Source: Capsulimonadaceae bacterium (GTDB lineage Bacteria; Armatimonadota; Armatimonadia; Armatimonadales; Capsulimonadaceae). From it: a DNA stretch of 64,000 bases. The notes beneath the pieces are model-generated. The model made no database searches. It saw nothing but the letters and a program-made list of their open reading frames with translations, and was not told the origin of the DNA. Where the stretch lies: the NCBI GenBank assembly GCA_965215505.1, contig OZ244065.1:288001-352000 (forward strand), written 5' to 3'. Shown here in pieces: positions 35,330 through 56,621 of this stretch; the first letter of the stretch is position 1; every line of letters begins with the position of its first letter. The position numbers were made by a program, and so were the translations under genes.

Positions 35330-35345
35330 GAGTGGTTCCCCTTTC

Positions 35346-41721: not shown

Positions 41722-41735
41722 CGGGGAGCGCTCCG

Positions 41736-42248
41736 TCAGCGGATACGCACCTCACAGCGGGCCGAGACGGACCCCATCGGCGGCAGATCACCCAGGAACG
41801 TCCAGCGGAGCGTCGTGTACCGCGAGGCCGGGGCCGGCTCGTCGTCGGTGCTGCCGTCAGGGTGGGTCACCCGGACCGTCGGCTTCTCGGCGAAGGTCTT
41901 GCCGCCGTCGAGGCTTGCGGTCAGCCGGGCGTCGCCGGAGGCCGACGCCGACGACGCTTGGTATTCCATGCCGCGCGGGACCGGCTGGGTGAGGACGAAG
42001 CCCCTGATGGGCCGTGCGAGGTGGCTGCTCGCGGTCACGGTGTACCGGAGGGCGTCGCCGGGCAGGACGACGGCCTTGCCCGAGCCGAGCGGGAGCCATT
42101 TTGGCTGTCCGTCCTGACCGGGCGGGGCCTTCTTCTCGACGGTCAGCAGCACGGCGACCGGTGCCGGGCCGGCGGGGGCCGCCCAGGCCGCAGGCAGGCA
42201 GAGCGCGGCGGCGAGCAGCATCAGTATGGAGTTGAAGCGGGTTTTCAT
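41736..42248 (-). CDS. Small secreted DUF11-type protein (paralog of 53493-54005)
   Basis: Signal peptide; 'PGDALRYTV', 'QPVPRGMEY', 'SLDGGKTF', 'YTTLRWTF'. Confidence 0.8.
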   Translation of the reverse strand: MKTRFNSILMLLAAALCLPAAWAAPAGPAPVAVLLTVEKKAPPGQDGQPKWLPLGSGKAVVLPGDALRYTVTASSHLARPIRGFVLTQPVPRGMEYQASSASASGDARLTASLDGGKTFAEKPTVRVTHPDGSTDDEPAPASRYTTLRWTFLGDLPPMGSVSARCEVRIR

Positions 42249-42303
42249 CGTGTTCCTTGTGTTCCTTCTTTTGTGTTCCTTCGCCGCTGACCCGTGGGCG
42301 CGG

Positions 42304-44697
42304 TCAGTTCAGCTTCCGACGGATCGTAAAGGTGCCGGAAGCGCCCGGCGCGATCGCGCCGGTGATGGTGTCCAGATACTTGGTGACATCCGTCGCCGCC
42401 GTCGTCCCGGTCTGGTCCGAGCAGCTCGTGGTCGCCGGGTTCCCGGAGAAGAACGTGACCACGCCGCCCGAGTCCACCGCCCGGCCCACGACATTGCTAG
42501 TGTCAATGATGCCGTTGCCGTCGTTGTCGAGCGCCCAGTTCGCGCCGCCGCCGATCCCGCTCCGCACCAGGACGACGTTGCTGGCGTTGAGCTGCTTGCA
42601 GTTCGTCCCGCCCGAGGACGAGATGTTCTGGTAGGTCACCTGATATTCCAGGAACCGGCCCGGCAGCAGGTTCGCCGGGGTCAATGTCTGCGTGTAGGCC
42701 TGGATGACGCTCGTGCCGTCGGTGCCCAGGATGCGCCCCAGCACGGCCAGCTTGAGGAAGCCCGTATACACCCGGTCCACGGTGTTCTCCGTGCCCTCGC
42801 CGCTATCATAGGTGCCGCTCCCGTTGCTGTCAATGAAGGCCTGGAGGACGACCGGGTAGCCCTTGCCGGTGTCGGTCGAGAGGGCGGTCGCGTTCGGGAG
42901 CTGCATGGAGGCGGTGATGTTGACCGTGCCGCCGGCGGCGATGTTCGTGGCCGAGATCGCCGTGCCGGACGTCTTGGTCCAGGCGGTGCCGTTGTAGGTG
43001 TAGAGCGGCGCATTGCCGCCGTAGGTCAGCGTGACGGTCGTCCCGCTCGGGAGGTCGGCCGCCTGGCCGCCGGGCAGGACGCTCGGGGGCAGGGGGACGA
43101 CGTAGATGGTGTTCGTGATCGTGGTCGAGCCGGTGTTCTTGATCGTGTTCGTGAAGGACACGGCGGCCGGGTTGATCGCATTCCCCGCCGTCAGCCCGGA
43201 CGGCACCGGGGACGAGAGGTTCGTGTAGTCGTCGTTGGCGTCGGTGGGGCCGACCGCCTGGGGTGAGCCGCTCGGCCCGATCGCGAGCGCGCCCGCCGGC
43301 TGGACCGTGTAGACGTTATCCTGCCCGCCCGCCCCTGAACCGGTGTTGTTGTTTGAAGCGTCCGTCCCGTCGCCTGCGGGGTTGGCGACGCCGCTCCGGG
43401 GCGTGTTGGACCCGTAGGAGCCGTCGTCGTTGAAGTTCGCCGGGTTGGCATCCCCGGACTCGTCGTAGCACAGCGCGCCGGTGACGTCGCCCGCCGAGTT
43501 GCCGAGGAGCTGCGCGAGGGCCGCGACCGTGGTCGGGGCGGTCAGGCTGACGCCGCTCGTGAGTACCGTGAAGGCGAACCCGGTCAGGCTGGTGCCCTTG
43601 GTGATGGGACCGGCGGCGACGAAACCGAGGCGCGTCGTGTTCGACAGCGGTGAGGGCGCTGTGGAAACCCAGGCCGCCGCGCTCGGCAGCGTGGTGGTGG
43701 CGCTGGTGGTATAAATCGCTGTCCAGCCGGAAGGGGCGGCGGGGGTGCCGGTAAGCACGGCCCCGGTGGGCACCGCGACCGAGATCAGGATGCGGCTGAC
43801 GGTGCTGCCGTCGAGGCTGATGCTGGTCGCGGTCAGGTCTGCGGGGACATACTCGGGCAGGGCGTTCGTCCACGCGCTCGAGTTGACGTTCAGGCCGAGG
43901 CTGTAGGCGAGGGTGTCATGCTGAGAGTCCACGCCCTGGGTCAGCGCCCCGTGCGTGAGCAGGACGGCGGCGAAGGCCTGCGGCTGCGAGCCGGCCGTCG
44001 TGGACTCGGTGGCGCTGGCCTCGCGGTTGCCGTTGACCGGCGATCCGGGGTCGGATGTATAGCACTTGCCCGCGCCGCCGGTCGGCGCGGTGGGGTAGGC
44101 CTGGTTCTGCGTTCCGGCGCTGTTGTCGTTCGGGCTGGTGTTACCGAGCAGCACGGCGATGGCGGCACCGGGGGCGGCGCTCGGAGTGACCGTGGCCGAG
44201 ACGCGCACCTGCACCGTGCCGCCCTCGGCGACGGTCGGCGTGGTAGCGCTGGCCCCCGAGACGGTGGTGTAGCTGGTGCCGCCGTTGGTGCTATACTGGA
44301 CGGAGGTCAGCGCGGCCGGGCCGGTGATGGCCACGGTGCCGGGGATGACGAACTGGTCGGTGTCGTTGCCGACGTTCGTGATCACATAGTCGTAGTACAG
44401 GACGTGGCCGGGCAGGATGTTGGCACCGCCCGTGTGGTCGGTGACGGCGGACCCCGTCAGCGTCATGCCCGCCACCTCGGCCACGGTCACGGTGACCGAG
44501 TTGGAAGGCGCGTTGACGGTCTGGCCGCTGTTGTTCGGGTCCACATAGCTCGCCGAAGCCGAGTCGGTGATGGGCGTGCCGGCCGCCGTCTGGGCGCGTG
44601 CGCCAGGCAGGGGCAGCAGCATCGCTGCCAGCAGCAGCGTGGGGAGGAGACCGCACAGCAGCCGTTCAGGGGGCCAAGTTTTTATCTTCGTGACCAC
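42304..44697 (-). CDS. Secreted beta-rich DUF11-type repeat protein (putative filament shaft, paralog of 54015-56396)
   Basis: Signal peptide; colinear similarity with 54015-56396 over the whole length. Confidence 0.82.
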   Translation of the reverse strand: MVTKIKTWPPERLLCGLLPTLLLAAMLLPLPGARAQTAAGTPITDSASASYVDPNNSGQTVNAPSNSVTVTVAEVAGMTLTGSAVTDHTGGANILPGHVLYYDYVITNVGNDTDQFVIPGTVAITGPAALTSVQYSTNGGTSYTTVSGASATTPTVAEGGTVQVRVSATVTPSAAPGAAIAVLLGNTSPNDNSAGTQNQAYPTAPTGGAGKCYTSDPGSPVNGNREASATESTTAGSQPQAFAAVLLTHGALTQGVDSQHDTLAYSLGLNVNSSAWTNALPEYVPADLTATSISLDGSTVSRILISVAVPTGAVLTGTPAAPSGWTAIYTTSATTTLPSAAAWVSTAPSPLSNTTRLGFVAAGPITKGTSLTGFAFTVLTSGVSLTAPTTVAALAQLLGNSAGDVTGALCYDESGDANPANFNDDGSYGSNTPRSGVANPAGDGTDASNNNTGSGAGGQDNVYTVQPAGALAIGPSGSPQAVGPTDANDDYTNLSSPVPSGLTAGNAINPAAVSFTNTIKNTGSTTITNTIYVVPLPPSVLPGGQAADLPSGTTVTLTYGGNAPLYTYNGTAWTKTSGTAISATNIAAGGTVNITASMQLPNATALSTDTGKGYPVVLQAFIDSNGSGTYDSGEGTENTVDRVYTGFLKLAVLGRILGTDGTSVIQAYTQTLTPANLLPGRFLEYQVTYQNISSSGGTNCKQLNASNVVLVRSGIGGGANWALDNDGNGIIDTSNVVGRAVDSGGVVTFFSGNPATTSCSDQTGTTAATDVTKYLDTITGAIAPGASGTFTIRRKLN

Positions 44698-46193: not shown

Positions 46194-48437
46194 TCATTTC
46201 ACCCGGACGCGGAACCGGAGGAACCCGTAAGAGCCGGTCGGCGTGCCCGGCCCAGTGGCGCTGGGCAGGGTCGCCGGGGCGGGGGCGAGGGAGACGGCCA
46301 CGACGCCGCTCAGGTTGGGCTGGCCGCCGGGGTTCGCGGCGGCGGGGACCGCCGCGCCCGGCGCGTAGAACTGGCCTCGGTCGGCGTCGGCGACGTCGGA
46401 CAGGTAGTTGGTCGGGGCGGTCGGCAGGCTGGATGCGCTCAGGGCCAGGGCGATGCCCGAGTCCGCGCCGCCCGTGCCCCCGTCGGTCGGCGTCAGCCCG
46501 TCATAGGCCGTCGCTTCAAAGGCGGTGTCGGCGGGCAGGACGTCGGCCAGCAGGATGTTGGTGCCGGGGCCGCTGGTGTCCAGGAAGTAGATGGTGTATT
46601 CCAGCTCATCGCCGGGCTTGATGTTGGCGACGCTGCGGGTCCCGCGCAGGTAGGTGGCGGCCGGGGCGGGCCAGTAGGGGCTGTTGTCGTCGGCCGTGCC
46701 GGGGTCGTCGTCGAACCCGGTCGTGTTCGTCCCGTTGACGGCGGTGATGCGCTTGACCAGCAGGAGGACGGGCGGCCCCTGGACGTTGAGCGTGGACGAG
46801 GCGGCGGGGCTGGGGAAATAGGTCCACAGGTCCAGCCCCTTGGTGTCCCCGAACGAGCCGGTGTTGGGGACATTGGTGTTGCCGTTGTTCCCCGACTGCC
46901 CATAGGCGCGCTGGGCCGAGGAAAGATCGAAGCCGTTTATGGGGTCTGCGGCGATGACAGAGGGCGGGGCGATGCCGCCGAGCGGCTGCCCGACGTCGGC
47001 GGCGCTGCCGGAGCCGCCGACGCTGCTCTTGGTGACGTTGTAGCCGCCCAATGTCCGGTAGCCCCGGTCATCGTAGAATCCGACCGTGTAGGAGTGACCG
47101 CCCGCATTGGCGTGGTTGAGCAAAGAAATGTTCGGCCCGCCGGAGACGTTGTTCTCGGCGTCCAGCAGCGGGAAGTGGTACTCCCCGGCGTGGATCGTGG
47201 CCTGAACGCCGTAGCCGGTGCCGACGGGGAAGTTCGCCCCGCTGTTGTCCTTGCCGTCCCACGTCACGGTGTTCGACCCAGCCGCGCGCACCCCGCGCAG
47301 GCGGCGGTTCGCGGGCAGCGTCGGGTCGAAGTTCACGTTGTCGCGGCTGATCACGATGTCATAGACCGCGCTGAGGTTGCTGGTGAAGCTGAACGTGCCG
47401 CCCGTCCCGAGGCGGCTGTTGTTGCCGCCCGCCGTGCCGGAGAAGCCCAGGCCGCTGATGGTCGGGTCCTGGGGGATGGTCGCGATACCCGCCGCCATCA
47501 GGGTCTCGTTGGCGGCCGGGTGGAAGAAGAGCGGGTAGGTGGGCAGGGCCAGGTGACAGCCGCCCTCGATACTGGAGAGCTGGCCGTCCGCGCCCAGTAC
47601 GTCCTGGTAGAGCGGCGAGACGCCGTCACTGTCGTAGAAGCCGACCTGGTTGCCGTAGATGATGAAGCCGTTCGGGTCCAGCCCGTTCAAAGCCATCTGG
47701 TAGCGGTAGCCGTCGGTCGTCACGGCATAGAGGTCGCTGTAGAGGCAGCGCCCGTTGCCGCCGGTGAACAGGGCGAGGTAGTAGGCAAAAACGCGCCCGG
47801 TGATGTCGGTCGTGGAGGAGGCCGAGGCGCGCACGGCGACGTCCCAGGCGGCCACGCTGCTGCCCTGCGAGCTGTCGAAGTCGTTGGTGGAACCAAGGGT
47901 GATGTCGCCATAGGGGGCACCGGTGCCGGCCGTGTTCCCGCCCGCCGGGCCGTAGAAGACGACCTCGTAGATGCCGTCTTCGGGGGCGACGTAGGAGGCC
48001 GGCGCGTAGCCCGACGTGTTGCCGGTCCCGTCCTGACTCTTCGGCCCGGCAAGCTCCAAAGCGCGGCTGGTGATCTGACCCTTGCCGGCCTGCGAACTCG
48101 CCTGGAAGTCCGGCGATGCGGGCACGTTCTCGCTGCCGACCGCGCCGGTGACGCGGCCCGGCCGGTAGATCAGGATGTCGCCGCTGCCGACCCCGACGGC
48201 CGACGAGGCGACCAGGATGTATTCGCCGGTGTGGGCGTAGACGTGCAGCAGGGTCCGGCGCAGCAGCAGGCTCCCGTAGGTGTCCGTGCGCCATTCCAGG
48301 TTGGCGCGGGCTGCGCCGGGCCGCCCGTCATCGGAGGCGGGGTAGAGGTCGCGGCTGCCCGACGCCCCGGCCCGCAGGGGCAGCATGCAGGCCAGGAGAG
48401 CCAGCGCGAGCGCCCCCAAAGTTCTTCGCTGTGTCAT
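46194..48437 (-). CDS. Secreted protein with FlgD-Ig-like segment and C-terminal truncated DUF11-type domain (putative tip adhesin)
   Basis: Signal peptide from MTQRRT; 'GSNTVTWDGKDNSG'; terminal 'LLLVKRI...PGDELEYTIYF...LADVLP...LRFRVRVK'. Confidence 0.8.
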   Translation of the reverse strand: MTQRRTLGALALALLACMLPLRAGASGSRDLYPASDDGRPGAARANLEWRTDTYGSLLLRRTLLHVYAHTGEYILVASSAVGVGSGDILIYRPGRVTGAVGSENVPASPDFQASSQAGKGQITSRALELAGPKSQDGTGNTSGYAPASYVAPEDGIYEVVFYGPAGGNTAGTGAPYGDITLGSTNDFDSSQGSSVAAWDVAVRASASSTTDITGRVFAYYLALFTGGNGRCLYSDLYAVTTDGYRYQMALNGLDPNGFIIYGNQVGFYDSDGVSPLYQDVLGADGQLSSIEGGCHLALPTYPLFFHPAANETLMAAGIATIPQDPTISGLGFSGTAGGNNSRLGTGGTFSFTSNLSAVYDIVISRDNVNFDPTLPANRRLRGVRAAGSNTVTWDGKDNSGANFPVGTGYGVQATIHAGEYHFPLLDAENNVSGGPNISLLNHANAGGHSYTVGFYDDRGYRTLGGYNVTKSSVGGSGSAADVGQPLGGIAPPSVIAADPINGFDLSSAQRAYGQSGNNGNTNVPNTGSFGDTKGLDLWTYFPSPAASSTLNVQGPPVLLLVKRITAVNGTNTTGFDDDPGTADDNSPYWPAPAATYLRGTRSVANIKPGDELEYTIYFLDTSGPGTNILLADVLPADTAFEATAYDGLTPTDGGTGGADSGIALALSASSLPTAPTNYLSDVADADRGQFYAPGAAVPAAANPGGQPNLSGVVAVSLAPAPATLPSATGPGTPTGSYGFLRFRVRVK

Positions 48438-48466
48438 CGTGTGTCCTCGAAGGGTCCCCGCCGTGG

Positions 48467-51400
48467 CTAATCGCCGGCCCGCCCCGGCGTGCTGGATGTC
48501 GTAACAGCAGACTGCGTCGGCCCGGCGGCGTTCCCCGTCGGGGCGGGGGTGAAGCCGGCCGGGACGGGGCGGCCCTTGTCCGCCAGTGCGCCGCGCTCCA
48601 GCCCGAAGCCGTTGAAGAGCTGGTTCACCTTGGCGGTGAAGCCCAGATAGATGCCGCCCGCCGAGCGCGCCCCGCTGAAGTCGCGGTCGCCGACGCGCCC
48701 GAAGCTGTACCCCAGGCTCAGGCGCAGGTCGGGCGTCGCGAAGTAGCCCGTCTCCACCACCAGGCCCCGGCTGCTGTAGCCCGCCGTCGTCTGGCCGATC
48801 CAGCGCAGGTCGCCCACGAGGTCCATGTCCGACCGGAAGCGGTAGGTCGCCCGCATCTGGGCCAGGTCGATCCGGCTGACGCCCACATAGTCGCCGGCCA
48901 GGAAGGAGACGCTGTCGCGCCGGGCCAGCTTGCCGTAGAACTCCCACTGCCATTCGGGGGCGTAGATGCCCTCGACCGCGAACACTCCGTCGCGCGAGCC
49001 CGCCCCGCTGCCGACCAGGATGGTGTCCGGGATCGTCGCCGGGTTGCGCCGGTAGTCGTAGCGGAGCAGCAGGTTGACGTTGTCGCGGGCTGGGTCGCGG
49101 TAGGCCAGGCCCATCCGCAGCGTCACCGAGCGGCCCAATGACTCCAGCAGCTGGTTCGCGGCGTCCGACTCCTGGTAAGCACCCAGGGCGGTCAGGGCCG
49201 GCCCGATCTTGCCGGCCAGCGCCCCGGTGATGACCGTGTTCTGTCCCCCGGACGAGTCGCGCGTCTCATAGCGCGCGCTGGCTTTGAAGTCGCGCGAGCG
49301 CGTATACTCCAGGCCCGCGCTCAGGCCGCCGCCGCTGCCGACGCCGAGGCCCGAGGCGCTCTGGCCGACGGCGTAGGGCTGCGCGAACCGGTCCCCCGCC
49401 CCGGTGCGCCCGAAGAACGCGCCGGTGACGTGTTCATAGCCCAGGCTGAGGCCCAGACCGGGGACCAGAATCCAGCGCCTGCCCAGGCCGAGCGACTGCT
49501 CCAGGGCGAAGCCGTTTGCGCCCCCGGTGAGCGCGAACCGCTCCGACATCTGCGTCCCGTCCCCGCCCTTGTGTTCGGCGACCGTCTCCAGGCTGGTGAC
49601 GGCGTGGCCTTTGTACTGGCCGCGCCCGTAGACCTGCTCGGTGAGTTTGACGTCCACGCCGGGCTTCGCCTTCCAGTCCGCGCCCACCGAGGTCCGGTCC
49701 GTGTAGACCGGGTCCGTGCCCGCCGACAGCGTGGTGTCGTTCTGGGCCAGCAGGGAGACGTTTTTGGTGACCGGCGCGGTCAGCCGCGTCTCCACCTGGT
49801 CCGAACTGCCCGAAAGGCCCGACCCGGCGATGCGGTCGGTGCGGCTCCGGCTGGTCAGGGCGACGGACACCTCGGCCCGGCGCACCCGCTGCTGCACCCC
49901 GACCGAGTAGGTCTGAAGGCTGTTGTCCACGGGCGTCCCGGCGGCGGGCGTCGTGCCGGGGTCCAGGACGCCGATCAGGGCGGGGTCGGGCTGGGGCGCG
50001 AGGCCCTTGTTGTCCTCGTGGTCGGCCTGCACCCGCAGGCGCGTCGTCGGCGAGAGCGCGGCCGAGACCTCGCCGCCGTACCGGGTCTGGCCCGGCACGA
50101 ACGAGGTGGTGGCGTCATTGGAAAAGCCGGTCCCGGTGGAGTGCAGGTAGGCCGAGACCGAAACGGCCCGCGCCGGGGAGGCCTCGGCGGACAGGCGGTA
50201 GGCGGTCCCGGCGACGTTCCCCAGGCCCGCCGCGCTGTCGCGGCTGTCAGAGCGCGCGATCTCGGCGATCAGCCGGCCACGCCCGCCGAGCAGCGGCAGG
50301 GAGGCGTCCGCCCCGTACAGGTCGAACCCCTGCAAGCCCTGGTTCTGGCGCAGGAAGGTGACGCCGAAGAGGCCGCCCGCCTGACGCCCCGCGCCGCCCG
50401 CCAGTCCGTACTGCATCCGGCCCCCGTAGACATTGGTGCCCGCCCCGCCGGTCTCGTACTGGTAGGTGGTGACGATCCTTCGGACCAGGGCCTGCCCGTC
50501 CGGGCCGACGTCGGTCCGCAGGACGGGCTGGTGGAAGAGCAGTGTCCCCCGGTCGTAGTCGATCTCATAGTCCACGCCGCGCTGGGGGGCGGCGCGCTCC
50601 AGGACGGTTCCGGGCCGGTTGATGTCTTCCAGCTCGAAGAAGACGCTCTCGCTGCCGTAGACCAGGGGCCGGTGGGACAGGAAGTACAGCCCGCTCGTCC
50701 CGTCGGGCGCGACGGTGTCGCGCTGGAAGCCCTGGACGTCGTCGCCGTAGAATCCGGTCGCCTGCAAGCCGCCCGCCTGGTAGTTCGCCTTCAGGGCGTG
50801 GAAGGTGCGCGTGATGGCCGTGAACTCCTGCGACCGGCCCGCGAACTCGGCCGTCCCGTAGTCGCCCCACAGGATGTAGGTCTGGTCGCGTTCCAGCCGC
50901 AGGGCCAAGTTGTCGCGGGACTGGGCCAGGGCGAAGGCGGTGGAGCTGTCGCCGTAGACGGCATAGGGCCGCTCCTGCGCCTGCGTCTGCGTGTCCCGGC
51001 CCAGGCTGCTCGGCCCCGCAGCCGTCTGGTTCAGAGCGTGTTCGCTGTCGTAAGCGCCGAGGAACAGATAGTCGCCAACCTTGCCGGTCGCGAAGACGGA
51101 CGTGCGCCCGTGGAGCTTGGAACCATCGCTGACGTCGGGGCTGATGAAGTCTTGCAGGGGCCGGTCGTAGTCGGAGCGGCGGCTGCCGAGACGGAAATCC
51201 ACCACGCCGGTCGCGAGGGAGGGGCGCAGGTGCGTGGCGAACTCGACGGACGCGAACGCCTCCAGGTCGCCGCTGGCGGCCCGGACGCGGACGGTCTGCG
51301 CCTGCACCCCGGCCCGCAGGGTGGCGCGGAATCGGCCCCCCACGGTCCGGACCTGGAAGCCGGGCTGGTCCGGGTCGGCGTCCTCGCCCACCCACTCGCC

Positions 51401-51910
51401 CGCCCCGGCCGTCAGCGTGACCAGGCCGTCGTGGTGGGAGGGCCGGCCCCGCGCGTCCAGCAAAGCCCCGGTGAAGGCCAGCGTGGAGCGGCCGTCGGCG
51501 GGGAGGCGGCTGCCCAGGGCGCGCAATGTGAGCTGCCGAGGCGCGGACTGCACCTCGACGGTGCGCTCGGCCCGCGCGCCGCCCGGCCCGGTTTCGGCGA
51601 GCAGGGTGTTCGTGCCTTCCTTCAGGACGACGCCGTACCAGGTCTGCGTGACTGTCTTGGCCGCGCCGTCGGTCTCGGTCCGGCCGATGAGGGTGGGGCT
51701 GATCAAGGTCCCGTTGACCCGCAGCGTGACGGCCGCCCCGGCCGGGAAGCGGAGGACGACGGCGACGGCGGGGCTGTCCAGCGCGCCGTCCCCGCCGGGG
51801 GAGAGGATTGCCAGCCCGGATGACTGGGGCACGGTCGTCTGCCCGCAAGCAGGTCGGGGAACTGCGACCACAGCCGCAGATGCCAGCATGAGTGCGATCA
51901 GGTGCTTCAT
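48467..51910 (-). CDS. Large putative outer-membrane beta-barrel protein with N-terminal Ig-like domains
   Basis: Signal peptide; invasin-like 'LPADGRSTL'; several hundred residues of alternating amphipathic strands ending 'LRLSLGYSFG...GGIYLGFTAK'. Confidence 0.75.
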   Translation of the reverse strand: MKHLIALMLASAAVVAVPRPACGQTTVPQSSGLAILSPGGDGALDSPAVAVVLRFPAGAAVTLRVNGTLISPTLIGRTETDGAAKTVTQTWYGVVLKEGTNTLLAETGPGGARAERTVEVQSAPRQLTLRALGSRLPADGRSTLAFTGALLDARGRPSHHDGLVTLTAGAGEWVGEDADPDQPGFQVRTVGGRFRATLRAGVQAQTVRVRAASGDLEAFASVEFATHLRPSLATGVVDFRLGSRRSDYDRPLQDFISPDVSDGSKLHGRTSVFATGKVGDYLFLGAYDSEHALNQTAAGPSSLGRDTQTQAQERPYAVYGDSSTAFALAQSRDNLALRLERDQTYILWGDYGTAEFAGRSQEFTAITRTFHALKANYQAGGLQATGFYGDDVQGFQRDTVAPDGTSGLYFLSHRPLVYGSESVFFELEDINRPGTVLERAAPQRGVDYEIDYDRGTLLFHQPVLRTDVGPDGQALVRRIVTTYQYETGGAGTNVYGGRMQYGLAGGAGRQAGGLFGVTFLRQNQGLQGFDLYGADASLPLLGGRGRLIAEIARSDSRDSAAGLGNVAGTAYRLSAEASPARAVSVSAYLHSTGTGFSNDATTSFVPGQTRYGGEVSAALSPTTRLRVQADHEDNKGLAPQPDPALIGVLDPGTTPAAGTPVDNSLQTYSVGVQQRVRRAEVSVALTSRSRTDRIAGSGLSGSSDQVETRLTAPVTKNVSLLAQNDTTLSAGTDPVYTDRTSVGADWKAKPGVDVKLTEQVYGRGQYKGHAVTSLETVAEHKGGDGTQMSERFALTGGANGFALEQSLGLGRRWILVPGLGLSLGYEHVTGAFFGRTGAGDRFAQPYAVGQSASGLGVGSGGGLSAGLEYTRSRDFKASARYETRDSSGGQNTVITGALAGKIGPALTALGAYQESDAANQLLESLGRSVTLRMGLAYRDPARDNVNLLLRYDYRRNPATIPDTILVGSGAGSRDGVFAVEGIYAPEWQWEFYGKLARRDSVSFLAGDYVGVSRIDLAQMRATYRFRSDMDLVGDLRWIGQTTAGYSSRGLVVETGYFATPDLRLSLGYSFGRVGDRDFSGARSAGGIYLGFTAKVNQLFNGFGLERGALADKGRPVPAGFTPAPTGNAAGPTQSAVTTSSTPGRAGD

Positions 51911-53490
51911 CGCGCGCCTTCTTTCGGCATCGGCATGGACATCGGCGCGGGGGCGTCAGCGGGGACGACGCCGAAGTTCAGCCGGACCATGCCGCCCGGC
52001 TGGACGTTGACCAAGCGGGACTGGCTGTTGCGCTCTTTGAAGCGGCGGTTGCGGGCGATGACGTAGCCGGGAACGCTCTGCATGTCCAGGGCGGCGGTGT
52101 GGTAGCCGGCCGTGACCGAGGCCAGCGAGAACAGGCCGTTCGCGTCGGCGACGATGCGCGTCGAGTCGTCCAGGATGACGACGGCATTGGGGACGCCCGG
52201 CTCGCCGGCCTGCTGCTCGCCGTCGCGGCTGCGGTCCACCCAGACGCGCCCCAGGAGGGTGCCGGTGTCGGTCAATAATCCCTGGCGCACTTGCAGGGTG
52301 AAGACGGCGGGGCCGTCGGAGATCGGAGTAGTCATCGTGGTCCCATGGGAGACGGTCAAGACGTCGGCGGTGACGACGGCGGAGTTTTTGCCGTCGCCGC
52401 GCAGGGCGTCCGGCGTGAGCTGGACGGCGTAAGCCAGGGTGAGCGCCTGGCCCGGCGGGAGCAGGAAGCCGCCCGCGTCAAGCACGGTCGTCGGCCCGCT
52501 CCTTGATACTGCGATGGGGACGCTCTTGCCCGACGCCGACGCCCGCACCGAGTCGGGGCGCAGGTCGAAGCCGAGCGGCGGCGTGTCTAATACCTGGATG
52601 TGTTCCAGCGGCAGGGTCGTCGGGTTCTGGACGAGGATGCGGTAGATGACGGTGTCGCCCGGCTCCGCCGTGCTGCGGTCCCCGCTCTTGCTGATCTGAA
52701 GCTCGTGCGCCTGGCAGTCGCTCAGGGTCAGGTTCAGCCCGGCCAGCCCCGGCCCGGTCGGCGCGGCCATCAGCATGGCGTGAGGCCCGGTGAGCGCGCC
52801 GCCCATGCCGTTCACCGGCTCGCCGTCGAGCGAGGCGGCCGTGTAGGCGATGCTCGTGCCGTCCCGCGCCCCCAGGGTGATGCGGATGCGCCGCTGGCGG
52901 TAGGCCGAGCCGGGGGGCGGGGTGAGGACCAGGATGTAGACGCGGCCCGCGTCGAGCTGGCCCCGGCTCGGGTCCAGCATCAGGCTGAAGCGGCCCTTGT
53001 CCGTGTCGGACAGCGCGAACGGGTTGGCGTTAAGGGTGTTAGGCGGGACGCCCGCAGGCACCCCCGCCTCAACGGACAGGGCGGTCGCGGTCAGCGCGAC
53101 GGCCCCCTTGACCTCGGCCCCCGTCGGGTCGGCGGGGTCCGGCTGGTACAGGCCGATGGTGAAGCCCGAGTAGGAGGGCAGGGGGGCACCGTCGCAGCCC
53201 ATCACCGTGCCGCGCGGGTCCACGAGCAGGGAGCGGGTGGTCATCCCGCCCATCGCCATGCCCCCCTTGCCGTCGCTGTAGGAGAAGGAAGTCTGGTTGG
53301 AGATCTGGCCCCGGTCCTGCGCCCGCGCGGCGGGCACAAGGACTGCCGGCAGGAGCGATCCCGCCAGGAGCAGGCCGGCCGCCCGGCGCCCTGATTGTCG
53401 CGCGTAGTTTCGCATCGTCAGCCTTCGCATCGTCAGCCTTCGCATCGTCAGCCTTCGCATCGTCAGCCTTCGCATCGTCAGCCTTCGCAT
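51907..53490 (-). CDS. Secreted protein with a complete DUF11 domain and SdrD-B-like domain (putative base/anchor subunit); true start is one of six ATGs
   Basis: 'LQISKSGDRSTAEPGDTVIYRI...VLDTPP...GKNSAVV'; 'GRVWVDRSRDGEQQAGEPGVPN'. Confidence 0.82.
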   Translation of the reverse strand: MRRLTMRRLTMRRLTMRRLTMRRLTMRNYARQSGRRAAGLLLAGSLLPAVLVPAARAQDRGQISNQTSFSYSDGKGGMAMGGMTTRSLLVDPRGTVMGCDGAPLPSYSGFTIGLYQPDPADPTGAEVKGAVALTATALSVEAGVPAGVPPNTLNANPFALSDTDKGRFSLMLDPSRGQLDAGRVYILVLTPPPGSAYRQRRIRITLGARDGTSIAYTAASLDGEPVNGMGGALTGPHAMLMAAPTGPGLAGLNLTLSDCQAHELQISKSGDRSTAEPGDTVIYRILVQNPTTLPLEHIQVLDTPPLGFDLRPDSVRASASGKSVPIAVSRSGPTTVLDAGGFLLPPGQALTLAYAVQLTPDALRGDGKNSAVVTADVLTVSHGTTMTTPISDGPAVFTLQVRQGLLTDTGTLLGRVWVDRSRDGEQQAGEPGVPNAVVILDDSTRIVADANGLFSLASVTAGYHTAALDMQSVPGYVIARNRRFKERNSQSRLVNVQPGGMVRLNFGVVPADAPAPMSMPMPKEGAR

Positions 53491-53497
53491 CGTCAGC
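53409..53497. repeat. Tandem repeat, 15-bp unit TTCGCATCGTCAGCC x ~5.9, spanning a stop/start junction
   Basis: Seen directly; encodes MRRLT repeats. Confidence 0.97.
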
Positions 53498-54005
53498 GGA
53501 CCCGCACCTGGTAGGTCACGGCCAGGGTCGTCTTCGCCGCCAGGGCGGGGAAGCGCCAGCGCAGGGCGGCGTAGGACTCGGGCGGGGCGGGGACAGTCCG
53601 GGCCGCGCCGTCCGCGCCGAGGACGGTCCGGGTGGGCTGTTCGGAGAACCGGTGCCCGTCCAGGCTGTAGGTGACCTGGGCAGGCCCCGCCGCGTCCCCT
53701 TCCGCCGAGCGGGAGACGTAGACGGTGCCGGCCGGGACCGGCTCGGTGACGACCAGGCCGGTGACGGGGGCCGCGCCCGTGTTCTCCGCCTGCATCCGGT
53801 AGCGCAGGAGGTCGCCCGGCTCGACCGGTCCGGTGTTCGCGCCGGCCACCGAGAGGCGCAGCAGGACGGGCGCGCTTTTCGGGGCGGGCGCGGCCCTCGG
53901 GCCGGCCGGCGCGGGGGCGGCGTGGCCGACGGACCAGGCACCCAGGGCGGCCAGTGGGGCGACAAGGACGGCCAGAAGGCCGAGGCGTGTATGCTGCTTT
54001 ATCAT
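53493..54005 (-). CDS. Small secreted DUF11-type protein
   Basis: Signal peptide; 'VEPGDLLRY...NTG...VVTEPVPAGTVYV...YSLDG...LRWRF...YQVRVR'. Confidence 0.82.
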   Translation of the reverse strand: MIKQHTRLGLLAVLVAPLAALGAWSVGHAAPAPAGPRAAPAPKSAPVLLRLSVAGANTGPVEPGDLLRYRMQAENTGAAPVTGLVVTEPVPAGTVYVSRSAEGDAAGPAQVTYSLDGHRFSEQPTRTVLGADGAARTVPAPPESYAALRWRFPALAAKTTLAVTYQVRVR

Positions 54006-54014
54006 GGGAACCTA

Positions 54015-56396
54015 CTAGTTGATCCTGCGCCGGAAGGTGAAGGTGCGGGGCGTGCCTGGGGCGAGGCTGCCCGAGATGGTGTCCACATACTTGGTGACGT
54101 CCGTGGCCGCCGTCGTCCCCGACCGGTCCGTGCCGGGGGCGGGCGGGCCGCCGTTGTAGAAGGTGATGACGCCGCCGCCCGAGTCTACGGCGGAGCCGAG
54201 GACGTTGCTGGTGTCCAGGATGCCGTTGCCGTCCTGGTCCAGTGCCCAGTTGTTGCCGCCCGCCGTGCCGTCCTCGATGATGACGGCGCTGCCGGCGTTC
54301 AGGACCGTACTCCCCGTCCCGGCGGGCGCGGAGGAGACGTTGGTGTAGGTGATCTTGTAGTCAATATAGCGGCCCGGCTGGATGTTGGCCGAGGACGGCC
54401 CGGCGCTGTAGTCCTGGATGACCGTCGTGCCGTCGGCGGCCACGATGCGGGCGCTCTTGGTCACCTGGAGGAAGCCGGTATACAGCCGGTCTATGGTCAT
54501 GTTACTCGGCTCCCCTGGGTCCGGCACGCCGTTGCCGTTGGCGTCCACGTTCGCCAGGATGGGGACCGGGAAGCCTTTGCTGGTGTCCGTCGAGAGCGGC
54601 GTGTTGGCGGGGAGCTGGACCGTCGCCGTGTAGCTGAGGGTCGCACCCGCCGCCATGCTCGGGATAGAGATCGCCGTCCCGCTCGCCAAAGCCCAGTGCG
54701 CGCCGTCATAGCCGTAGACGGCGCTCGCCCCGCCGTAGGCCAGCGTGAGGTGCGTCCCGACGGGCAGGTCGGCGGCGGCCCCGCCGGGGATGGCGGCGGG
54801 CGGCTGCGGCAGGAGGAGCGTGTTGCCGCTGATCGGGGCCGCGCCGGGGTTTTGCAAAGTGTTGGTGAACGTGACGGCGGCGGGCGTGATCAGGGTGCCC
54901 GGCGGGGTTCCGGGGGGGACCGGGGTGGACAGATTCGAGAAGTCGTCGTTGCTGCCGTTCGGCCCGGTCGCGCCGGGCTGGCCGTTCGGCCCGTTCATCA
55001 CGACGCCCGCGGGCGAGACGGTGTAGACGTTGTCCTCGCCGCCCGGCCCGGTCCCGGTGTCGTTGTTGCCCGCGTCCGTCCCGTCCGTGCCGGGGGCGGC
55101 GACGCCGTTCGTCGGCGTGCTTCCGCCCCGGCTGCCGTCGTCGTTGAAGAGGCTCGGCGACTGGTCACCGGACTCGTCATACACAAGCGCGTTCGTGGCG
55201 TCGCCCGAGGTCTGCCCGAAGAGCTGGGCGATGTTGTTCACCGGGGTGGGGGCGGTCGCGCTGGCCCCGGTGGTCGTGACCGTGTAGGCGAAGCCGGTCA
55301 GCGTCGTCCCCCGGGTGACCGGGCCGGGGGCGATGAAGCCGACGCGGGTGACGGTGGTCAGGTCGGTCGGCGCGGCCGTCGTCCAGGCGGCGCTCTCGGC
55401 GACCGTGCTGGTCGGCGTGGTCGTATAAACGACGGTCCAGCCGGAGGGGGCGGTTGGCGTGCCGGTCAGGGTCGTCCCGGCCGGGATGGCGTTCGCGATC
55501 AGGACGCTGGGCGCGGACGCGCCGTTGACGGTCAGGGGGGCGGCGGCGAGGTCGGCGGCGGCCAGGGCGTGGGAGGCACCCGCGCCGGTCGGGACGCTGT
55601 TGTTGACGTTCAGGCCCAGGCCGTAGGTGAGGGTGTCGGCGGCGGGGACCGCGCCCTGGGCGAAGCCGGTCCGGGTCAGCAGCAGGACGGCCAACGCCTG
55701 CGGCTGCGTCCCGACGGTGCCGTTCTGGAAGGCGCTGGCCTCGCGCAGCCCGTTCTGGGCCGTGGTGGAATTCGTGTGGACGTCGGCGGCAGACGGGGTG
55801 GGGTCGGCGATGTTCTGGGTGTCGGTGTTGTTGTCGTTCGCGCCCGTGTCGCCGAGCAGCACCTTGATGACGTCGCCGGTCGCCGCCGAAGCCGCAACGG
55901 TGATGGGGACGCGCACCAGGACGGTTCCGTTCGCCGGGATGGCGGACGTGGCGACCCCGCCCGCCGGGATGTTGGTGAAGTGCGCGCCCCCGTCGGTACT
56001 ATACTGGAGCGCGCCCGCCGTGCCGGGGCCGGTGACGGTCGCCGCGCCGGGCAGGGTGATGGCGTTCGCGCCGTTGCCGATGTTGGTGACGGTGAAGTCG
56101 TAGTTCACCGTGTCGCCGGGCAGAATGTTGTTCGCGTGGCCGGGCGTCGTGTCGGTGACGGCCGCGCCGCCGGCCGAGAGGCCGGCGACCTCGGCGACCG
56201 TCACCGAGACGGTGTTGGAGGTCGCGTTGAGGGCCTGGCCCGCGTTGTTGGGGTCGTTGTAGGTGGCGGACGCGGTGTTGCTGATCGCCGTGCCCGCCGC
56301 CGTGCCCGCCGCCCGCGCCGGGCCGCCGTCCGTCAGGGTGCCTTCAAAGACCCCCCCGAACAGGACCGTCGCGAGGAGCAATCTGCGTGTCTGCAT
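54015..56396 (-). CDS. Secreted beta-rich DUF11-type repeat protein (putative major filament subunit)
   Basis: Signal peptide ending ARA; mature N-terminus 'AGTAAGTAISNTASATY...SNTVSVTVAEV'; C-terminus 'LQVTKS...PGRYIDYKITYTN...IIEDG...LAPG...TFTFRRRIN'. Confidence 0.85.
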   Translation of the reverse strand: MQTRRLLLATVLFGGVFEGTLTDGGPARAAGTAAGTAISNTASATYNDPNNAGQALNATSNTVSVTVAEVAGLSAGGAAVTDTTPGHANNILPGDTVNYDFTVTNIGNGANAITLPGAATVTGPGTAGALQYSTDGGAHFTNIPAGGVATSAIPANGTVLVRVPITVAASAATGDVIKVLLGDTGANDNNTDTQNIADPTPSAADVHTNSTTAQNGLREASAFQNGTVGTQPQALAVLLLTRTGFAQGAVPAADTLTYGLGLNVNNSVPTGAGASHALAAADLAAAPLTVNGASAPSVLIANAIPAGTTLTGTPTAPSGWTVVYTTTPTSTVAESAAWTTAAPTDLTTVTRVGFIAPGPVTRGTTLTGFAYTVTTTGASATAPTPVNNIAQLFGQTSGDATNALVYDESGDQSPSLFNDDGSRGGSTPTNGVAAPGTDGTDAGNNDTGTGPGGEDNVYTVSPAGVVMNGPNGQPGATGPNGSNDDFSNLSTPVPPGTPPGTLITPAAVTFTNTLQNPGAAPISGNTLLLPQPPAAIPGGAAADLPVGTHLTLAYGGASAVYGYDGAHWALASGTAISIPSMAAGATLSYTATVQLPANTPLSTDTSKGFPVPILANVDANGNGVPDPGEPSNMTIDRLYTGFLQVTKSARIVAADGTTVIQDYSAGPSSANIQPGRYIDYKITYTNVSSAPAGTGSTVLNAGSAVIIEDGTAGGNNWALDQDGNGILDTSNVLGSAVDSGGGVITFYNGGPPAPGTDRSGTTAATDVTKYVDTISGSLAPGTPRTFTFRRRIN

Positions 56397-56533: not shown

Positions 56534-56621
56534 GGAAGCGGGAACTCCCATAGCTGTGCGGCCATCGCGCAGTGCCTGGCCCCGGAGCCTTGGGGGTGCA
56601 TCACATGAAAGGGGCGAAACC

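What the first reader, a model, noticed from the sequence alone, without database searches (positions are those of the whole stretch)
46194..56396. Candidate undescribed surface filament system: split-DUF11 pilus with tip, shaft, base, chaperone-like subunit and usher-like barrel
Seen: five co-oriented, tightly packed genes, all with signal peptides. Sorting them by which half of a DUF11 Ig fold they carry gives a consistent assembly logic. 54015-56396 has an N-terminal 'ISNTA..Y...SNTV' hairpin and a C-terminal domain lacking that hairpin (donor plus acceptor = shaft). 46194-48437 has only the truncated acceptor (tip/cap). 51907-53490 has only a donor-like 'QISNQTSFSY' N-terminus (base) and overlaps by ATGA the 1147-aa beta-barrel gene (anchor/secretion pore). 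53493-54005 is a lone acceptor (chaperone-like). Known: chaperone-usher pili polymerise by donor-strand complementation. No PapD/PapC, sortase or prepilin motifs are visible here. Inference: a distinct fimbrial class. Similar DUF11 operons are annotated as hypothetical in other phyla, and I know of no functional characterisation.
Basis: partly seen in the sequence, partly recalled or inferred. Interest (0 to 1): 0.92.

Follow-up and report, generated by a model that had tools for sequence, protein, structure and literature searches.

The report
Split-domain surface fibre gene cluster
A conserved five-gene cluster seems to build a cell-surface fibre whose subunits join by lending each other the missing hairpin of a folded domain, which I could not find described in print.

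Summary
The five minus-strand genes are real. Their order (shaft, small, base, barrel) recurs in 74 of 74 complete related loci from Armatimonadota and Cyanobacteria.

- Shaft and base start, just after the signal peptide, with a conserved "ISN.A...Y.D" hairpin.
- Shaft, tip and small all end where a DUF11 (CLIPPER) Ig domain still lacks its last hairpin.
- A complex model places the shaft hairpin into the tip's C-terminal domain (ipSAE 0.89, best control 0.00). This puts conserved donor Asn residues beside the acceptor's invariant Lys and Asp.
- Donor Asn40 and acceptor Lys647 are both kept in 111 of 113 shaft homologues and both lost in the other 2, in what look like independent lineages. 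That suggests an intermolecular isopeptide bond.

The barrel is a large outer-membrane barrel, not specifically an usher. In many distant relatives it is fused to a base-like passenger carrying the same N-terminal hairpin. Those loci hold small, shaft-like and tip-like genes too.

A second cluster (shaft2, small2 and a lectin-rich tip2) lies at 37582-44697.

No paper on this system turned up. Everything here is computational. Polymerisation, the covalent bond and the small protein's role remain inferred.

The parts
54015..56396 (-). Shaft subunit, 793 aa: signal peptide, N-terminal donor hairpin, Ig-like domains including DUF7925 (CnaA-like), and a C-terminal acceptor domain
   Evidence: ORF. 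Pfam DUF7925 at residues 236-415, E 4.9e-54. More than 700 homologues. AF2 model has mean pLDDT 80.3 and is all-beta and multi-domain.
56193..56291 (-). Donor hairpin of the shaft (residues 36-68, 'ISNTASATY...SNTVSVTV'), with candidate isopeptide Asn40 and invariant Asn61
   Evidence: I38, A42, Y46, D48, S60, N61 and V63 are invariant, and N40 is kept in 81 of 82. These residues form the modelled interface with the tip domain.
54018..54479 (-). C-terminal acceptor domain of the shaft (residues 640-793), with Lys647 and Glu708/Asp709; ends '...TFTFRRRIN'
   Evidence: K647 is kept in 81 of 82 and position 708 is E or D in 81 of 82. N40 and K647 are lost together in 2 of 113 and kept together in 111.
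53493..54005 (-). Small acceptor-only protein, 170 aa: the N-terminal part of a DUF11 domain without its last hairpin
   Evidence: Pfam DUF11 profile positions 9-58 of 114, 30.1 bits. hhalign gives 96% probability to the base's DUF11, first ~80 columns only. Present in 79 of 80 related loci and in 36 of 39 distant loci.
53409..53497 (.). Perfect 15-bp x 5.9 tandem repeat across the small gene's stop and the base gene's start; it gives six in-frame ATGs (MRRLT x5)
51907..53490 (-). Base, 527 aa: signal peptide, N-terminal donor strand 'QISNQTSFSYSD' (residues 62-73), complete DUF11 (264-375), CnaB-like SdrD_B (415-486); no truncated acceptor
   Evidence: Domains. N65 is kept in 78 of 79, and the domain's own K268/D302/N369 in 77 of 79. 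Shaft N-terminus versus base N-terminus gives hhalign probability 91%.
48467..51910 (-). Barrel protein, 1147 aa: signal peptide, two Ig-like domains (~34-225), then about 45 long beta-strand elements (233-1094). Predicted giant outer-membrane barrel. Its start overlaps the base stop by 4 nt.
   Evidence: AF2 model has mean pLDDT 64.6. Fold matches are LptD, MtrB, SlpA, SprA, porins, TonB-dependent receptors and FimD, all tied. The 4-nt overlap recurs in 71 of 75 related loci.
46194..48437 (-). Tip, 747 aa: signal peptide, N-terminal region of unknown family, and a conserved C-terminal acceptor domain (residues ~555-747, nt 46197-46775) with Lys562 and Asp632; ends 'YGFLRFRVRVK'
   Evidence: K and D are kept in 46 of 46. 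The N-terminal parts differ between orthologues while the C-terminal domain is kept. Complex model with the shaft hairpin scores 0.89, controls 0.00.
42304..44697 (-). Shaft2, 797 aa paralogue (52% identical): same architecture, but donor Asn->Asp, acceptor Lys->Val and Glu->Arg
41736..42248 (-). Small2, 170 aa paralogue of the small protein
37582..41721 (-). Tip2, 1379 aa: fn3, two malectin domains, Laminin_G_3 and other Ig-like domains, then the same tip-type C-terminal acceptor domain (ends 'YGFVRYQVTIN'; Asn at the acid position)
   Evidence: Domains and sequence. It is one of only two matches to the tip C-domain profile in the whole genome.

Best explanation
The cluster encodes a modular cell-surface fibre of a diderm bacterium, built by completing a split DUF11/CLIPPER-type Ig domain between molecules.

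Shown by analysis:
- Three proteins (shaft, tip, small) end in a domain that stops before its last beta-hairpin.
- Two proteins (shaft, base) carry such a hairpin at the mature N-terminus.
- The set is conserved.

Supported by modelling:
- The shaft hairpin inserts into the tip's C-terminal domain.

Inferred:
- The chain runs, from the far end to the cell: tip (adhesin part outward), one or more shafts head-to-tail, then base.
- The base sits in, or is held by, the giant outer-membrane barrel, whose gene is translationally coupled to the base gene. In many relatives base and barrel are a single autotransporter-like polypeptide.
- Each junction is locked by a self-catalysed isopeptide bond between the donor Asn ('ISN') and the acceptor Lys, helped by the acceptor's Asp/Glu. 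This is the chemistry that complete CLIPPER domains use within one chain.
- The small acceptor-only protein binds free hairpins in the periplasm, as a chaperone or a cap.
- The barrel is the route across the outer membrane.

The adjacent shaft2-small2-tip2 cluster supplies a second fibre type with a lectin-rich tip and without the bond-forming residues.
For: Conservation:
- The order shaft-small-base-barrel is found in 74 of 74 loci that hold all four genes (80 loci examined; Armatimonadota and many Cyanobacteria). The 4-nt base/barrel overlap recurs in 71 of 75.

Donor and acceptor features:
- The donor motif is near-invariant: shaft N40 in 81 of 82 and N61 in 82 of 82; base N65 in 78 of 79.
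- In the 6.18-Mb genome the motif occurs only in shaft and base.
- The shaft and base N-termini match each other (hhalign 91%).
- The tip-type acceptor domain occurs only twice in the genome, in tip and tip2.
- Tip N-terminal parts vary while the C-terminal domain is kept.
- Tip2 carries malectin and LamG lectin domains.

Complex model, shaft residues 30-235 with the tip's last 200 residues:
- ipSAE 0.89 (runs 0.88, 0.90, 0.89); best of 3 controls 0.00.
- This mark was reached by 58 of 80 solved complexes and 2 of 110 mismatched pairs. Those counts hold only roughly here, because my own alignments were used.
- The runs agree in at least 94% of contacts, and the partner's pLDDT is at least 87.
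- The interface is shaft 38-52 and 55-68 (the hairpin) against tip strand A (including the Lys, model residue 15) and the strand bearing the invariant Asp (residue 85). Shaft residues 42 and 60-63 touch the Lys, and 42-46 touch residues 80-85.

Candidate bond-forming triad:
- Tip Lys and Asp are kept in 46 of 46.
- Shaft K647 is kept in 81 of 82, and position 708 is E or D in 81 of 82.
- In 113 full-length shaft homologues, N40 and K647 are both present in 111 and both replaced in 2. These are shaft2 (D/V, with E708R) and P0027 (S/Q). P0027 is 59% identical to shaft but 48% to shaft2, so I read it as a separate lineage.

Base-barrel link:
- The barrel family has 3428 representative clusters at E<=1e-3.
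- Many members of 1350-2600 aa are fusions of a base-like region and a barrel. Of 84 long members, 42 match a strict donor-motif pattern near the N-terminus.
- Named examples are from Smithella sp. and a Thermodesulfobacteriota genome assembled from a metagenome.

Same parts list in distant loci:
- 64 loci have a barrel ORF, and 39 of these have at least 5 kb upstream.
- Of those 39: small in 36, a donor-bearing shaft-like gene in 34, a donor-less tip-like gene in 26, and all three in 21.
- All 51 donors detected by profile in non-barrel ORFs carry the Asn.
Against: - There is no experimental or expression evidence.
- Only the tip-shaft junction was modelled. Shaft-shaft, base-shaft, small-shaft and base-barrel were not.
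- The coordinates of the AF2 shaft monomer cannot be seen, so I cannot say whether its hairpin (pLDDT blocks 77, 61, 57) folds back onto its own C-terminal domain. The Asn40/Lys647 covariation fits same-molecule (cis) as well as between-molecule (trans) pairing.
- The complex model rebuilds what looks like an intact Ig domain. Its pass may reflect learned likeness to intact domains rather than real binding.
- Pfam does not recognise the shaft or tip C-terminal domains as DUF11, and the profile matches are weak.
- Which Asn (40 or 61) would bond is not resolved. The nearest modelled neighbours of the Lys are residues 42 and 60-63.
- The barrel model is of modest confidence (pLDDT 64.6) and resembles no particular transporter. 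How 80-kDa multi-domain subunits would cross the outer membrane is unknown.
- Shaft2 and tip2 lack triad residues, so covalent locking cannot be universal.
- The small protein's acid position is Gln in 77 of 80 close orthologues, Glu in the window and Asp in the two distant ones whose motif I read by eye (L087, L099). Its Lys register is ambiguous. A 'dead acceptor' reading is therefore not secure.
Confidence: 0.6

Rival explanations
1. A defined, short stalk rather than a polymer. One tip, one shaft and one base are stapled end to end on the barrel anchor, as a three-piece fibrillar adhesin, and the shaft does not homopolymerise.
For: Only the tip-shaft junction was modelled. Shaft C-domain and tip C-domain profiles are not detectably alike (hhalign 8.8%), so the shaft hairpin need not fit the shaft's own acceptor type. 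In fused relatives the anchor already carries a long passenger of DUF11 repeats.
Against: The shaft has both a donor and an acceptor. Its Asn40 and Lys647 co-vary, as expected if shaft hairpins pair with shaft-type acceptors. The base donor would also need a shaft-type acceptor.
Confidence: 0.2
2. Circular permutation within one chain. The N-terminal hairpin completes the same molecule's C-terminal domain, so shaft proteins are closed monomeric adhesins. The orphan pieces have other roles.
For: Self-complementation is known for other donor-strand subunits; passages read in PMC9715654 report it in predictions. A long, low-confidence linker (residues 416-500) could allow the chain to fold back. 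The Asn40/Lys647 covariation is equally compatible.
Against: Conserved orphan donors (base and fused anchors) and orphan acceptors (tip, tip2, small) have no partner in the same chain. The shaft hairpin is modelled into the tip's domain with high confidence.
Confidence: 0.1
3. The C-terminal domains are sorting signals for a new outer-membrane translocon (the barrel), by analogy with type IX secretion C-terminal domains and SprA. The N-terminal hairpins are unrelated structural elements.
For: SprA appears among the barrel's fold matches (ranks 20 and 41). Variable cargo-like N-terminal parts are fused to a conserved C-terminal domain.
Against: Only two proteins in the genome carry the tip-type domain. 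Shaft, small and tip C-domains are not alike in sequence. No type IX family was found. The hairpin docks into the domain in the model.
Confidence: 0.06

Closest known systems
Chaperone-usher pili (type 1, P and archaic CupE pili)
   Same: Subunits have an incomplete Ig-like fold that is completed by an N-terminal extension from the neighbouring subunit. There is a tip adhesin with an acceptor but no donor, and a terminating subunit with a donor only. An outer-membrane barrel is encoded in the operon. (Recalled knowledge, plus passages in PMC9715654.)
   Different: No PapD-like chaperone or usher family is detected. The donor is a two-strand hairpin from a CnaA-like/DUF11 domain, not a single strand. 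Subunits are about 80-kDa multi-domain rods. The barrel is much larger than a 24-strand usher and is fused to the base in many relatives. The candidate 'chaperone' would accept rather than donate. A covalent lock is likely.
Archaeal thread filaments (Saci_0406, Sulfolobus acidocaldarius)
   Same: Head-to-tail subunits are joined by donor-strand complementation plus an apparent intermolecular isopeptide bond, with no dedicated polymerase, and a neighbouring gene is proposed to encode a cap (abstract and passages of PMC9715654).
   Different: Threads are archaeal, with no outer membrane or barrel. They use small single-domain pilin-like subunits. The reported bond joins subunits n and n+2 through the N-terminal residue, not a Lys-Asn pair inside a reconstituted domain. 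Sequence relationship was not tested here.
CLIPPER (DUF11) and other CnaA-like intramolecular isopeptide domains; SpyTag/SpyCatcher as the engineered split version
   Same: The same domain class and the same Lys/Asp/Asn arrangement (passages and Table 1 of PMC12617251). The base's complete DUF11 keeps all three residues in 77 of 79 orthologues. The shaft's middle domain is DUF7925, listed there as a predicted isopeptide domain.
   Different: Here the last hairpin, with the Asn, sits on another polypeptide (or the other end of the chain), so the bond would be intermolecular. A natural split of this kind is not mentioned in the passages I read. SpyTag/SpyCatcher is recalled, not checked in a call.
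Sortase-assembled Gram-positive pili
   Same: Covalent fibres of multi-domain CnaA/CnaB pilins, with a tip adhesin and a base pilin (recalled).
   Different: None of the window's fibre proteins ends in an LPXTG-plus-membrane-anchor signal. They end ...FRRRIN...VRVK...VRVR and so on. No sortase family is present in the cluster. The organism has outer-membrane-type proteins.
Autotransporters (type V secretion) and sheath-and-core barrels such as MtrAB and LptDE
   Same: In the fused relatives, an N-terminal passenger is followed by a C-terminal barrel. MtrB and LptD are among the fold matches.
   Different: No autotransporter family is detected. The barrel has about 45 predicted strand elements, against 12 in classical autotransporters (the latter recalled). 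In this window the passenger (base) and the barrel are separate, translationally coupled genes.

Membership tests
Chaperone-usher pilus systems | PapD-like periplasmic chaperone (Pfam PapD_N/PapD_C) | tested here: not met
   A Pfam scan of all five proteins and the paralogue pair at E<=0.01 gave no such family. The small protein is a truncated DUF11 domain instead.
Chaperone-usher pilus systems | Usher (Pfam Usher; 24-strand barrel with plug, N- and C-terminal domains) | tested here: inconclusive
   No Pfam or NCBIfam hit. FimD appears at Z 15.1 (352 aligned, rmsd 12.8) but is tied with maltoporin, TonB-dependent receptors, MtrB and AlgE at Z 14-16.7. The model's pLDDT is 64.6.
Chaperone-usher pilus systems | Subunits with an incomplete Ig fold completed by a neighbour's N-terminal extension | tested here: met
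   Met as a working principle only. The shaft hairpin is modelled into the tip C-domain (0.89 against 0.00), and orphan donors and acceptors are conserved. The fold family differs.
DUF11 / CLIPPER (PF01345, TIGR01451) | Sequence match above the curated cut-off | tested here: met
   Small: PF01345 30.1 bits (cut-off 24.6) and TIGR01451 38.8 (cut-off 24). Base: TIGR01451 35.9, PF01345 23.7 (just below cut-off). Tip: TIGR01451 21.4 (below cut-off). The shaft and tip C-domains got no Pfam hit at E<=10. Membership therefore holds for small and base, not for the shaft and tip C-domains.
DUF11 / CLIPPER (PF01345, TIGR01451) | Lys-Asp-Asn isopeptide triad within one domain | tested here: met
   In the base's complete domain, K268/D302/N369 are kept in 77 of 79. 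In shaft and tip, Lys and the acid lie in the C-domain while the Asn lies in the separate hairpin. Bond formation itself is not testable with these tools.
DUF7925 (PF25546, CnaA-like) | Sequence match above the cut-off | tested here: met
   Shaft 183.4 bits and shaft2 157.6 bits (cut-off 26.5).
Sortase-dependent pili | C-terminal LPXTG sorting signal and a pilus sortase gene | tested here: not met
   The C-termini read directly show no LPXTG or hydrophobic tail. No sortase family is found in the cluster proteins scanned. The rest of the genome was not scanned for sortase.
Type V pili (FimA/Mfa1) | Lipoprotein precursors with a lipobox Cys; protease-released donor strand | tested here: not met
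   The signal peptides of shaft, small and base have no Cys before the mature N-terminus. No FimA or Mfa family hit.
Type IX secretion C-terminal domain cargo | Por_Secre_tail-type C-terminal domain on many cargo proteins; SprA translocon | tested here: not met
   No such Pfam or NCBIfam hit. The tip-type domain occurs only twice in the genome. SprA is only one of many generic barrel matches.
Classical autotransporters | 12-strand C-terminal barrel (Pfam Autotransporter) | tested here: not met
   No Pfam hit. The barrel model has about 45 strand elements over about 860 residues.

The most novel reading that the evidence does not exclude
This is a widespread, undescribed class of covalent pili in bacteria with an outer membrane. 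Subunits polymerise without sortase or ATP because a CLIPPER domain is naturally split. The acceptor carries the Lys and the catalytic acid, and the next subunit's N-terminal hairpin carries the Asn. Docking triggers a self-catalysed intermolecular isopeptide bond, a natural counterpart of SpyTag/SpyCatcher. The fibre is rooted in a giant barrel anchor of the autotransporter kind. The universal small protein acts as an 'inverse' chaperone that holds donor hairpins until they are handed to a bond-competent acceptor.
Probability: 0.4. Interest if true: 0.92.

Novelty: new variant of a known kind. Interest (0 to 1): 0.8.

Why it matters
If confirmed, this would add a further pilus or fibre class to the few known in outer-membrane-bearing bacteria.

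- **Reach.** It is present in 32 of 301 sampled cyanobacterial genomes. Barrel relatives number in the thousands of sequence clusters, and they reach other lineages such as Thermodesulfobacteriota.
- **Mechanism.** It would show that strand complementation and isopeptide chemistry, so far combined in archaeal threads, are also used by bacteria. The driving force would be built in, for assembly in a compartment without ATP.
- **Biology.** It offers a handle on adhesion, aggregation and symbiosis in Nostoc-type cyanobacteria.
- **Applications.** It could supply a set of natural, orthogonal protein-ligation pairs.

The hypothesis can be tested directly with gels and mass spectrometry.

Tried and rejected
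**Sequence searches against solved structures**
- No hit at E<=1 for shaft or barrel.
- The base gave only weak SdrD matches.

**Fold searches**
- Foldseek on the shaft model gave only generic strings of Ig domains: integrin legs, antigen I/II and CFA/I pilin fusions.
- Foldseek on the barrel gave generic large barrels, with no usher in the first 50 rows. VIA lists FimD, but tied with many others.
- The ESM Atlas returned unnamed or loosely named outer-membrane clusters for the barrel, and nothing at 0.9 or above for the tip's N-terminal part.

**Expression and regulation**
Nothing can be said about expression.
- Promoter and terminator scans were uninformative: 3 and 12 sites, against 0.8 and 8.1 expected.

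**The idea that the small protein is a 'dead' acceptor is left open**
- The acid position is Gln in 77 of 80 close orthologues.
- It is Asp in the two distant orthologues whose motif I read by eye (L087, L099).
- Three alignment registers place Leu, Ala or Lys at the Lys position.

**Papers checked and set aside as different systems**
- The cyanobacterial tubular pilus MrpC (PMC12397347; outline and sections 6 and 7 read).
- The Litorilinea grappling-hook protein made of DUF11 repeats (bioRxiv 2025.08.19.671072; passages).
- The F-ENA anchor with DUF11 domains (PMC12357932; passages).
- Nodularia spore-coat-U-type fimbrial genes (PMC3610870; passages).
- A DUF11 signal peptide used in Synechococcus PCC 11901 (PMC13297417; passages).

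**Limits**
Table S2/S3 of PMC12617251 may list these proteins among predicted isopeptide domains.
- A remote job of two full-length shaft copies exceeds the 1000-residue limit of complex prediction and was not sent.
Full report
**What is there.** Between 46194 and 56396, five minus-strand ORFs lie head to tail:
- shaft, 54015-56396 (793 aa)
- small, 53493-54005 (170 aa)
- base, 51907-53490 (527 aa)
- barrel, 48467-51910 (1147 aa)
- tip, 46194-48437 (747 aa)

The base stop and barrel start overlap as ATGA. Each protein opens with a basic-then-hydrophobic, signal-peptide-like segment. That is read from the sequence; no predictor was run.

Family scans give:
- Shaft: DUF7925 at residues 236-415 (183 bits). 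The only paper naming this family lists it among predicted CnaA-like intramolecular isopeptide domains (PMC12617251, passages read).
- Small: DUF11 over profile positions 9-58 of 114 only.
- Base: a complete DUF11 repeat (264-375) and a CnaB-like SdrD_B domain (415-486).
- Barrel: no family.
- Tip: only sub-threshold matches.

No PapD, usher, sortase, prepilin, autotransporter or type IX family appears.

Downstream on the same strand lie three more genes:
- shaft2, 42304-44697 (797 aa, 52% identical to shaft)
- small2, 41736-42248
- tip2, 37582-41721 (1379 aa)

Tip2 has fn3, two malectin domains and a Laminin_G_3 domain, and it ends in the same C-terminal domain as the tip. A profile of that domain finds only these two copies in the 6.18-Mb genome.

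**The split-domain observation holds.** The shaft's mature N-terminus carries 'ISNTASATYNDPNN...SNTVSVTVAEVAG'. In 82 aligned shafts, I38, A42, Y46, D48, S60, N61 and V63 are invariant, and N40 is kept in 81. The base's mature N-terminus carries 'QISNQTSFSYSD', with N65 kept in 78 of 79. The two N-termini match profile to profile (91%). A regular-expression scan of all six frames of the genome finds this motif only in these two proteins. Shaft2 has Asp in place of the Asn.

On the acceptor side:
- The small protein aligns with the first ~80 columns of the base's complete DUF11 domain (96%).
- In the global alignment it stops at the strand equivalent to 'ALTLAYAVQLT'. It therefore lacks the final 'GKNSAVV...GPAVFTLQV' hairpin.
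- Shaft ('...LAPGTPRTFTFRRRIN') and tip ('...TGSYGFLRFRVRVK') end at what looks, by eye, like the same point. Pfam does not call their C-domains DUF11, and the profile matches are weak (14% and 61%). For those two the family label is a reading, not a test passed.

**Conservation.** The shaft has more than 700 homologues, about 50% identical over their full length in Nostoc, Fischerella, Stenomitos, Leptolyngbya and other cyanobacteria. All are annotated as hypothetical or 'beta strand repeat-containing'. In 80 loci from named genomes (Armatimonadota and Cyanobacteria):
- Small is present in 79, base in 78 and barrel in 75.
- All four genes are in the same order in 74 of 74 loci that hold all four.
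- The 4-nt base/barrel overlap is found in 71 of 75.
- The misses are at contig ends, except L067, which has no small gene.
- A tip-like gene follows the barrel in 58 of 80. The remaining loci end 0-4.6 kb after their last recognised gene.
- The tip's N-terminal part varies in length and sequence while its last ~190 residues are kept.

DUF7925 passes its cut-off in 3 of 201 sampled genomes of the window's own phylum, all in one genus. It passes in 32 of 301 sampled genomes of the cyanobacterial phylum. The region's G+C content is 0.72, against 0.66-0.69 nearby. This patchiness is compatible with lateral transfer, which I did not test.

**Does the hairpin complete another protein's domain?** One complex job was available. 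I used it on the pair that can only be intermolecular: shaft residues 30-235 with the last 200 residues of the tip, each with its own alignment.
- Score 0.89 (runs 0.88, 0.90, 0.89); best of three controls 0.00.
- The mark was reached by 58 of 80 solved complexes and 2 of 110 mismatched pairs in the tool's calibration. Those counts hold only roughly here, because my own alignments were used.
- The runs agree in at least 94% of contacts, and the partner's pLDDT is at least 87.
- On the shaft side the interface is residues 38-52 and 55-68, which is the hairpin.
- On the tip side it is the first strand (model residues 8-17, with the Lys at 15), residues 76-91 (with the invariant Asp at 85) and parts of the last strands.
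- The best-defined contacts join shaft 42 and 60-63 to the Lys, and shaft 42-46 to residues 80-85.

The model supports binding; it does not show it. Because the result looks like an intact Ig domain, the pass may partly reflect likeness to solved intact domains.

**A candidate intermolecular isopeptide.** Complete CLIPPER domains hold a Lys (first strand), an Asp and an Asn (near the end) that form an internal bond (PMC12617251, Table 1 passage).
- The base's complete domain keeps K268/D302/N369 in 77 of 79.
- In the split domains, Lys and the acid stay with the acceptor. The tip keeps Lys and Asp in 46 of 46. The shaft keeps K647 in 81 of 82, and position 708 is E or D in 81 of 82.
- The conserved Asn residues lie on the hairpin.
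- In 113 full-length shaft homologues, N40 and K647 are both present in 111 and both replaced in 2. One is shaft2 (Asp/Val, together with Glu708->Arg). The other is P0027 (Ser/Gln).
- P0027 is nearer to shaft (59%) than to shaft2 (48%). I read the two losses as independent, but no tree was built.
- N61 is kept in all 113.

This pattern is what a bonded Asn40-Lys647 pair would give. It does not tell cis from trans, and the model's nearest neighbours of the Lys are residues 42 and 60-63 rather than 40. The identity of the bonding Asn is therefore open. Tip2 has Asn at the acid position and shaft2 lacks the triad, so the second cluster would be held together without the bond.

**The barrel and the base.** The AF2 model (mean pLDDT 64.6, pTM 0.42) shows two Ig-like domains at residues 34-225, followed by about 45 long strand elements up to residue 1094. 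Foldseek and VIA return large outer-membrane barrels of many kinds: LptD, MtrB, Deinococcus SlpA, SprA, maltoporin, AlgE, TonB-dependent receptors and FimD. Z scores are tied at 14-16.7, with large rmsd. It is an outer-membrane barrel of unknown family, and 'usher-like' is not established.

A profile search of 1.84 billion representatives finds 3428 relatives at E<=1e-3 and 1385 at E<=1e-30.
- Among the 150 best, most distant members (about 25-30% identical) are 1350-2600 aa long. They carry a region matching the base (its DUF11 and CnaB-like part) directly before the barrel. Several also match the shaft's N-terminal region at their own N-terminus.
- Of the 84 proteins longer than 1350 aa that were examined, 42 match a strict donor-motif pattern within the first 110 residues. 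Others show it by eye, for example '...PPGTPI.N.A.A.Y.D.NG'.
- In an alignment of 17 such fusions the donor Asn is invariant.
- Named examples come from Smithella sp. and a Thermodesulfobacteriota genome assembled from a metagenome.

Base and barrel are thus one autotransporter-like protein in many lineages, and two translationally coupled genes here. That argues they work as one anchor presenting a donor hairpin.

**The same parts list in distant systems.** A metagenome scan with the fusion alignment gave 71 loci. Of these, 64 contain a barrel ORF and 39 have at least 5 kb upstream. Among those 39:
- 36 have a small-protein gene, matched over most of its length (at least 95 of 147 profile positions) and ending at the protein's C-terminus.
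- 34 have a donor-bearing shaft-like gene that ends in a DUF11-type domain.
- 26 have a donor-less tip-like gene.
- 21 have all three.
- 33 anchors carry the donor motif.

The usual order there is tip, small, shaft, anchor. All 51 donors found by profile in non-barrel ORFs of these loci have the Asn.

**How it most likely works (inference).**
- After Sec export, tip, shaft and base/barrel meet in the periplasm or at the barrel.
- The tip's acceptor takes a shaft hairpin. Each shaft's acceptor takes the next shaft's hairpin. The base's hairpin fills the last acceptor and ends growth, leaving the fibre rooted in the barrel.
- Domain completion, and where the triad is present the isopeptide bond, would make each step irreversible and could drive export without ATP.
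- The small acceptor-only protein is nearly universal in the related loci examined (79 of 80 and 36 of 39). It is a good candidate for a hairpin-holding chaperone or cap, but I could not test it, and the state of its catalytic residues is ambiguous.

**Literature.** Seven full-text searches found no description of this operon, of DUF7925 proteins beyond the isopeptide survey, or of a naturally split CLIPPER domain. The closest analogues are chaperone-usher pili and the archaeal thread, which combines donor-strand complementation with an isopeptide bond (PMC9715654, abstract and passages). Subscription-only papers and supplementary files were not searchable.

**Verdict.** That core is a fibre built from split-domain donors and acceptors. 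The usher and chaperone labels, homopolymerisation and the covalent bond remain hypotheses. I rate the finding as a new variant of the donor-strand-complementation pilus principle, of high interest.

Noticed in passing
window 53409-53497: A perfect 15-bp tandem repeat (5.9 copies) spans the small gene's stop codon and the base gene's start. It gives six in-frame ATG codons, so the base's signal peptide could begin with one to six 'MRRLT' units. Copy-number change would keep the frame.
   Followed up: partly
window 37582-41721 (-): A 1379-aa secreted protein with fn3 repeats, two malectin domains and a Laminin_G_3 domain carries the same C-terminal acceptor domain as the tip. It looks like a carbohydrate-binding tip for the shaft2 fibre.
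   Followed up: partly
window 48000-56000: G+C content is 0.72 across the cluster, against 0.66-0.69 in most of the window. The shaft family passes its cut-off in only 3 of 201 sampled genomes of the window's phylum (one genus) but in 32 of 301 cyanobacterial genomes. This is a possible lateral acquisition; no tree was built.
   Followed up: partly
window 44868-46001 (+) and 56556-57755 (+): The two fibre clusters are separated by an opposite-strand GFO/IDH/MocA-type oxidoreductase gene. The main cluster is bounded upstream by a divergent beta-lactamase-family (serine hydrolase) gene. Neither seems to be part of the system.
   Followed up: no
window 33944-35419 (-): A 491-aa ORF with a glucuronyl-esterase-type domain (Pfam GCE_fung, E 8e-28) lies about 2 kb beyond the lectin-rich tip2, on the same strand. 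This hints at a plant-polymer setting.
   Followed up: no
L024 (Pseudanabaena sp., named genome locus): The barrel gene is split into two ORFs (barrel residues 33-914 and 921-1106) about 1.2 kb apart. This may be an insertion or an assembly break.
   Followed up: no
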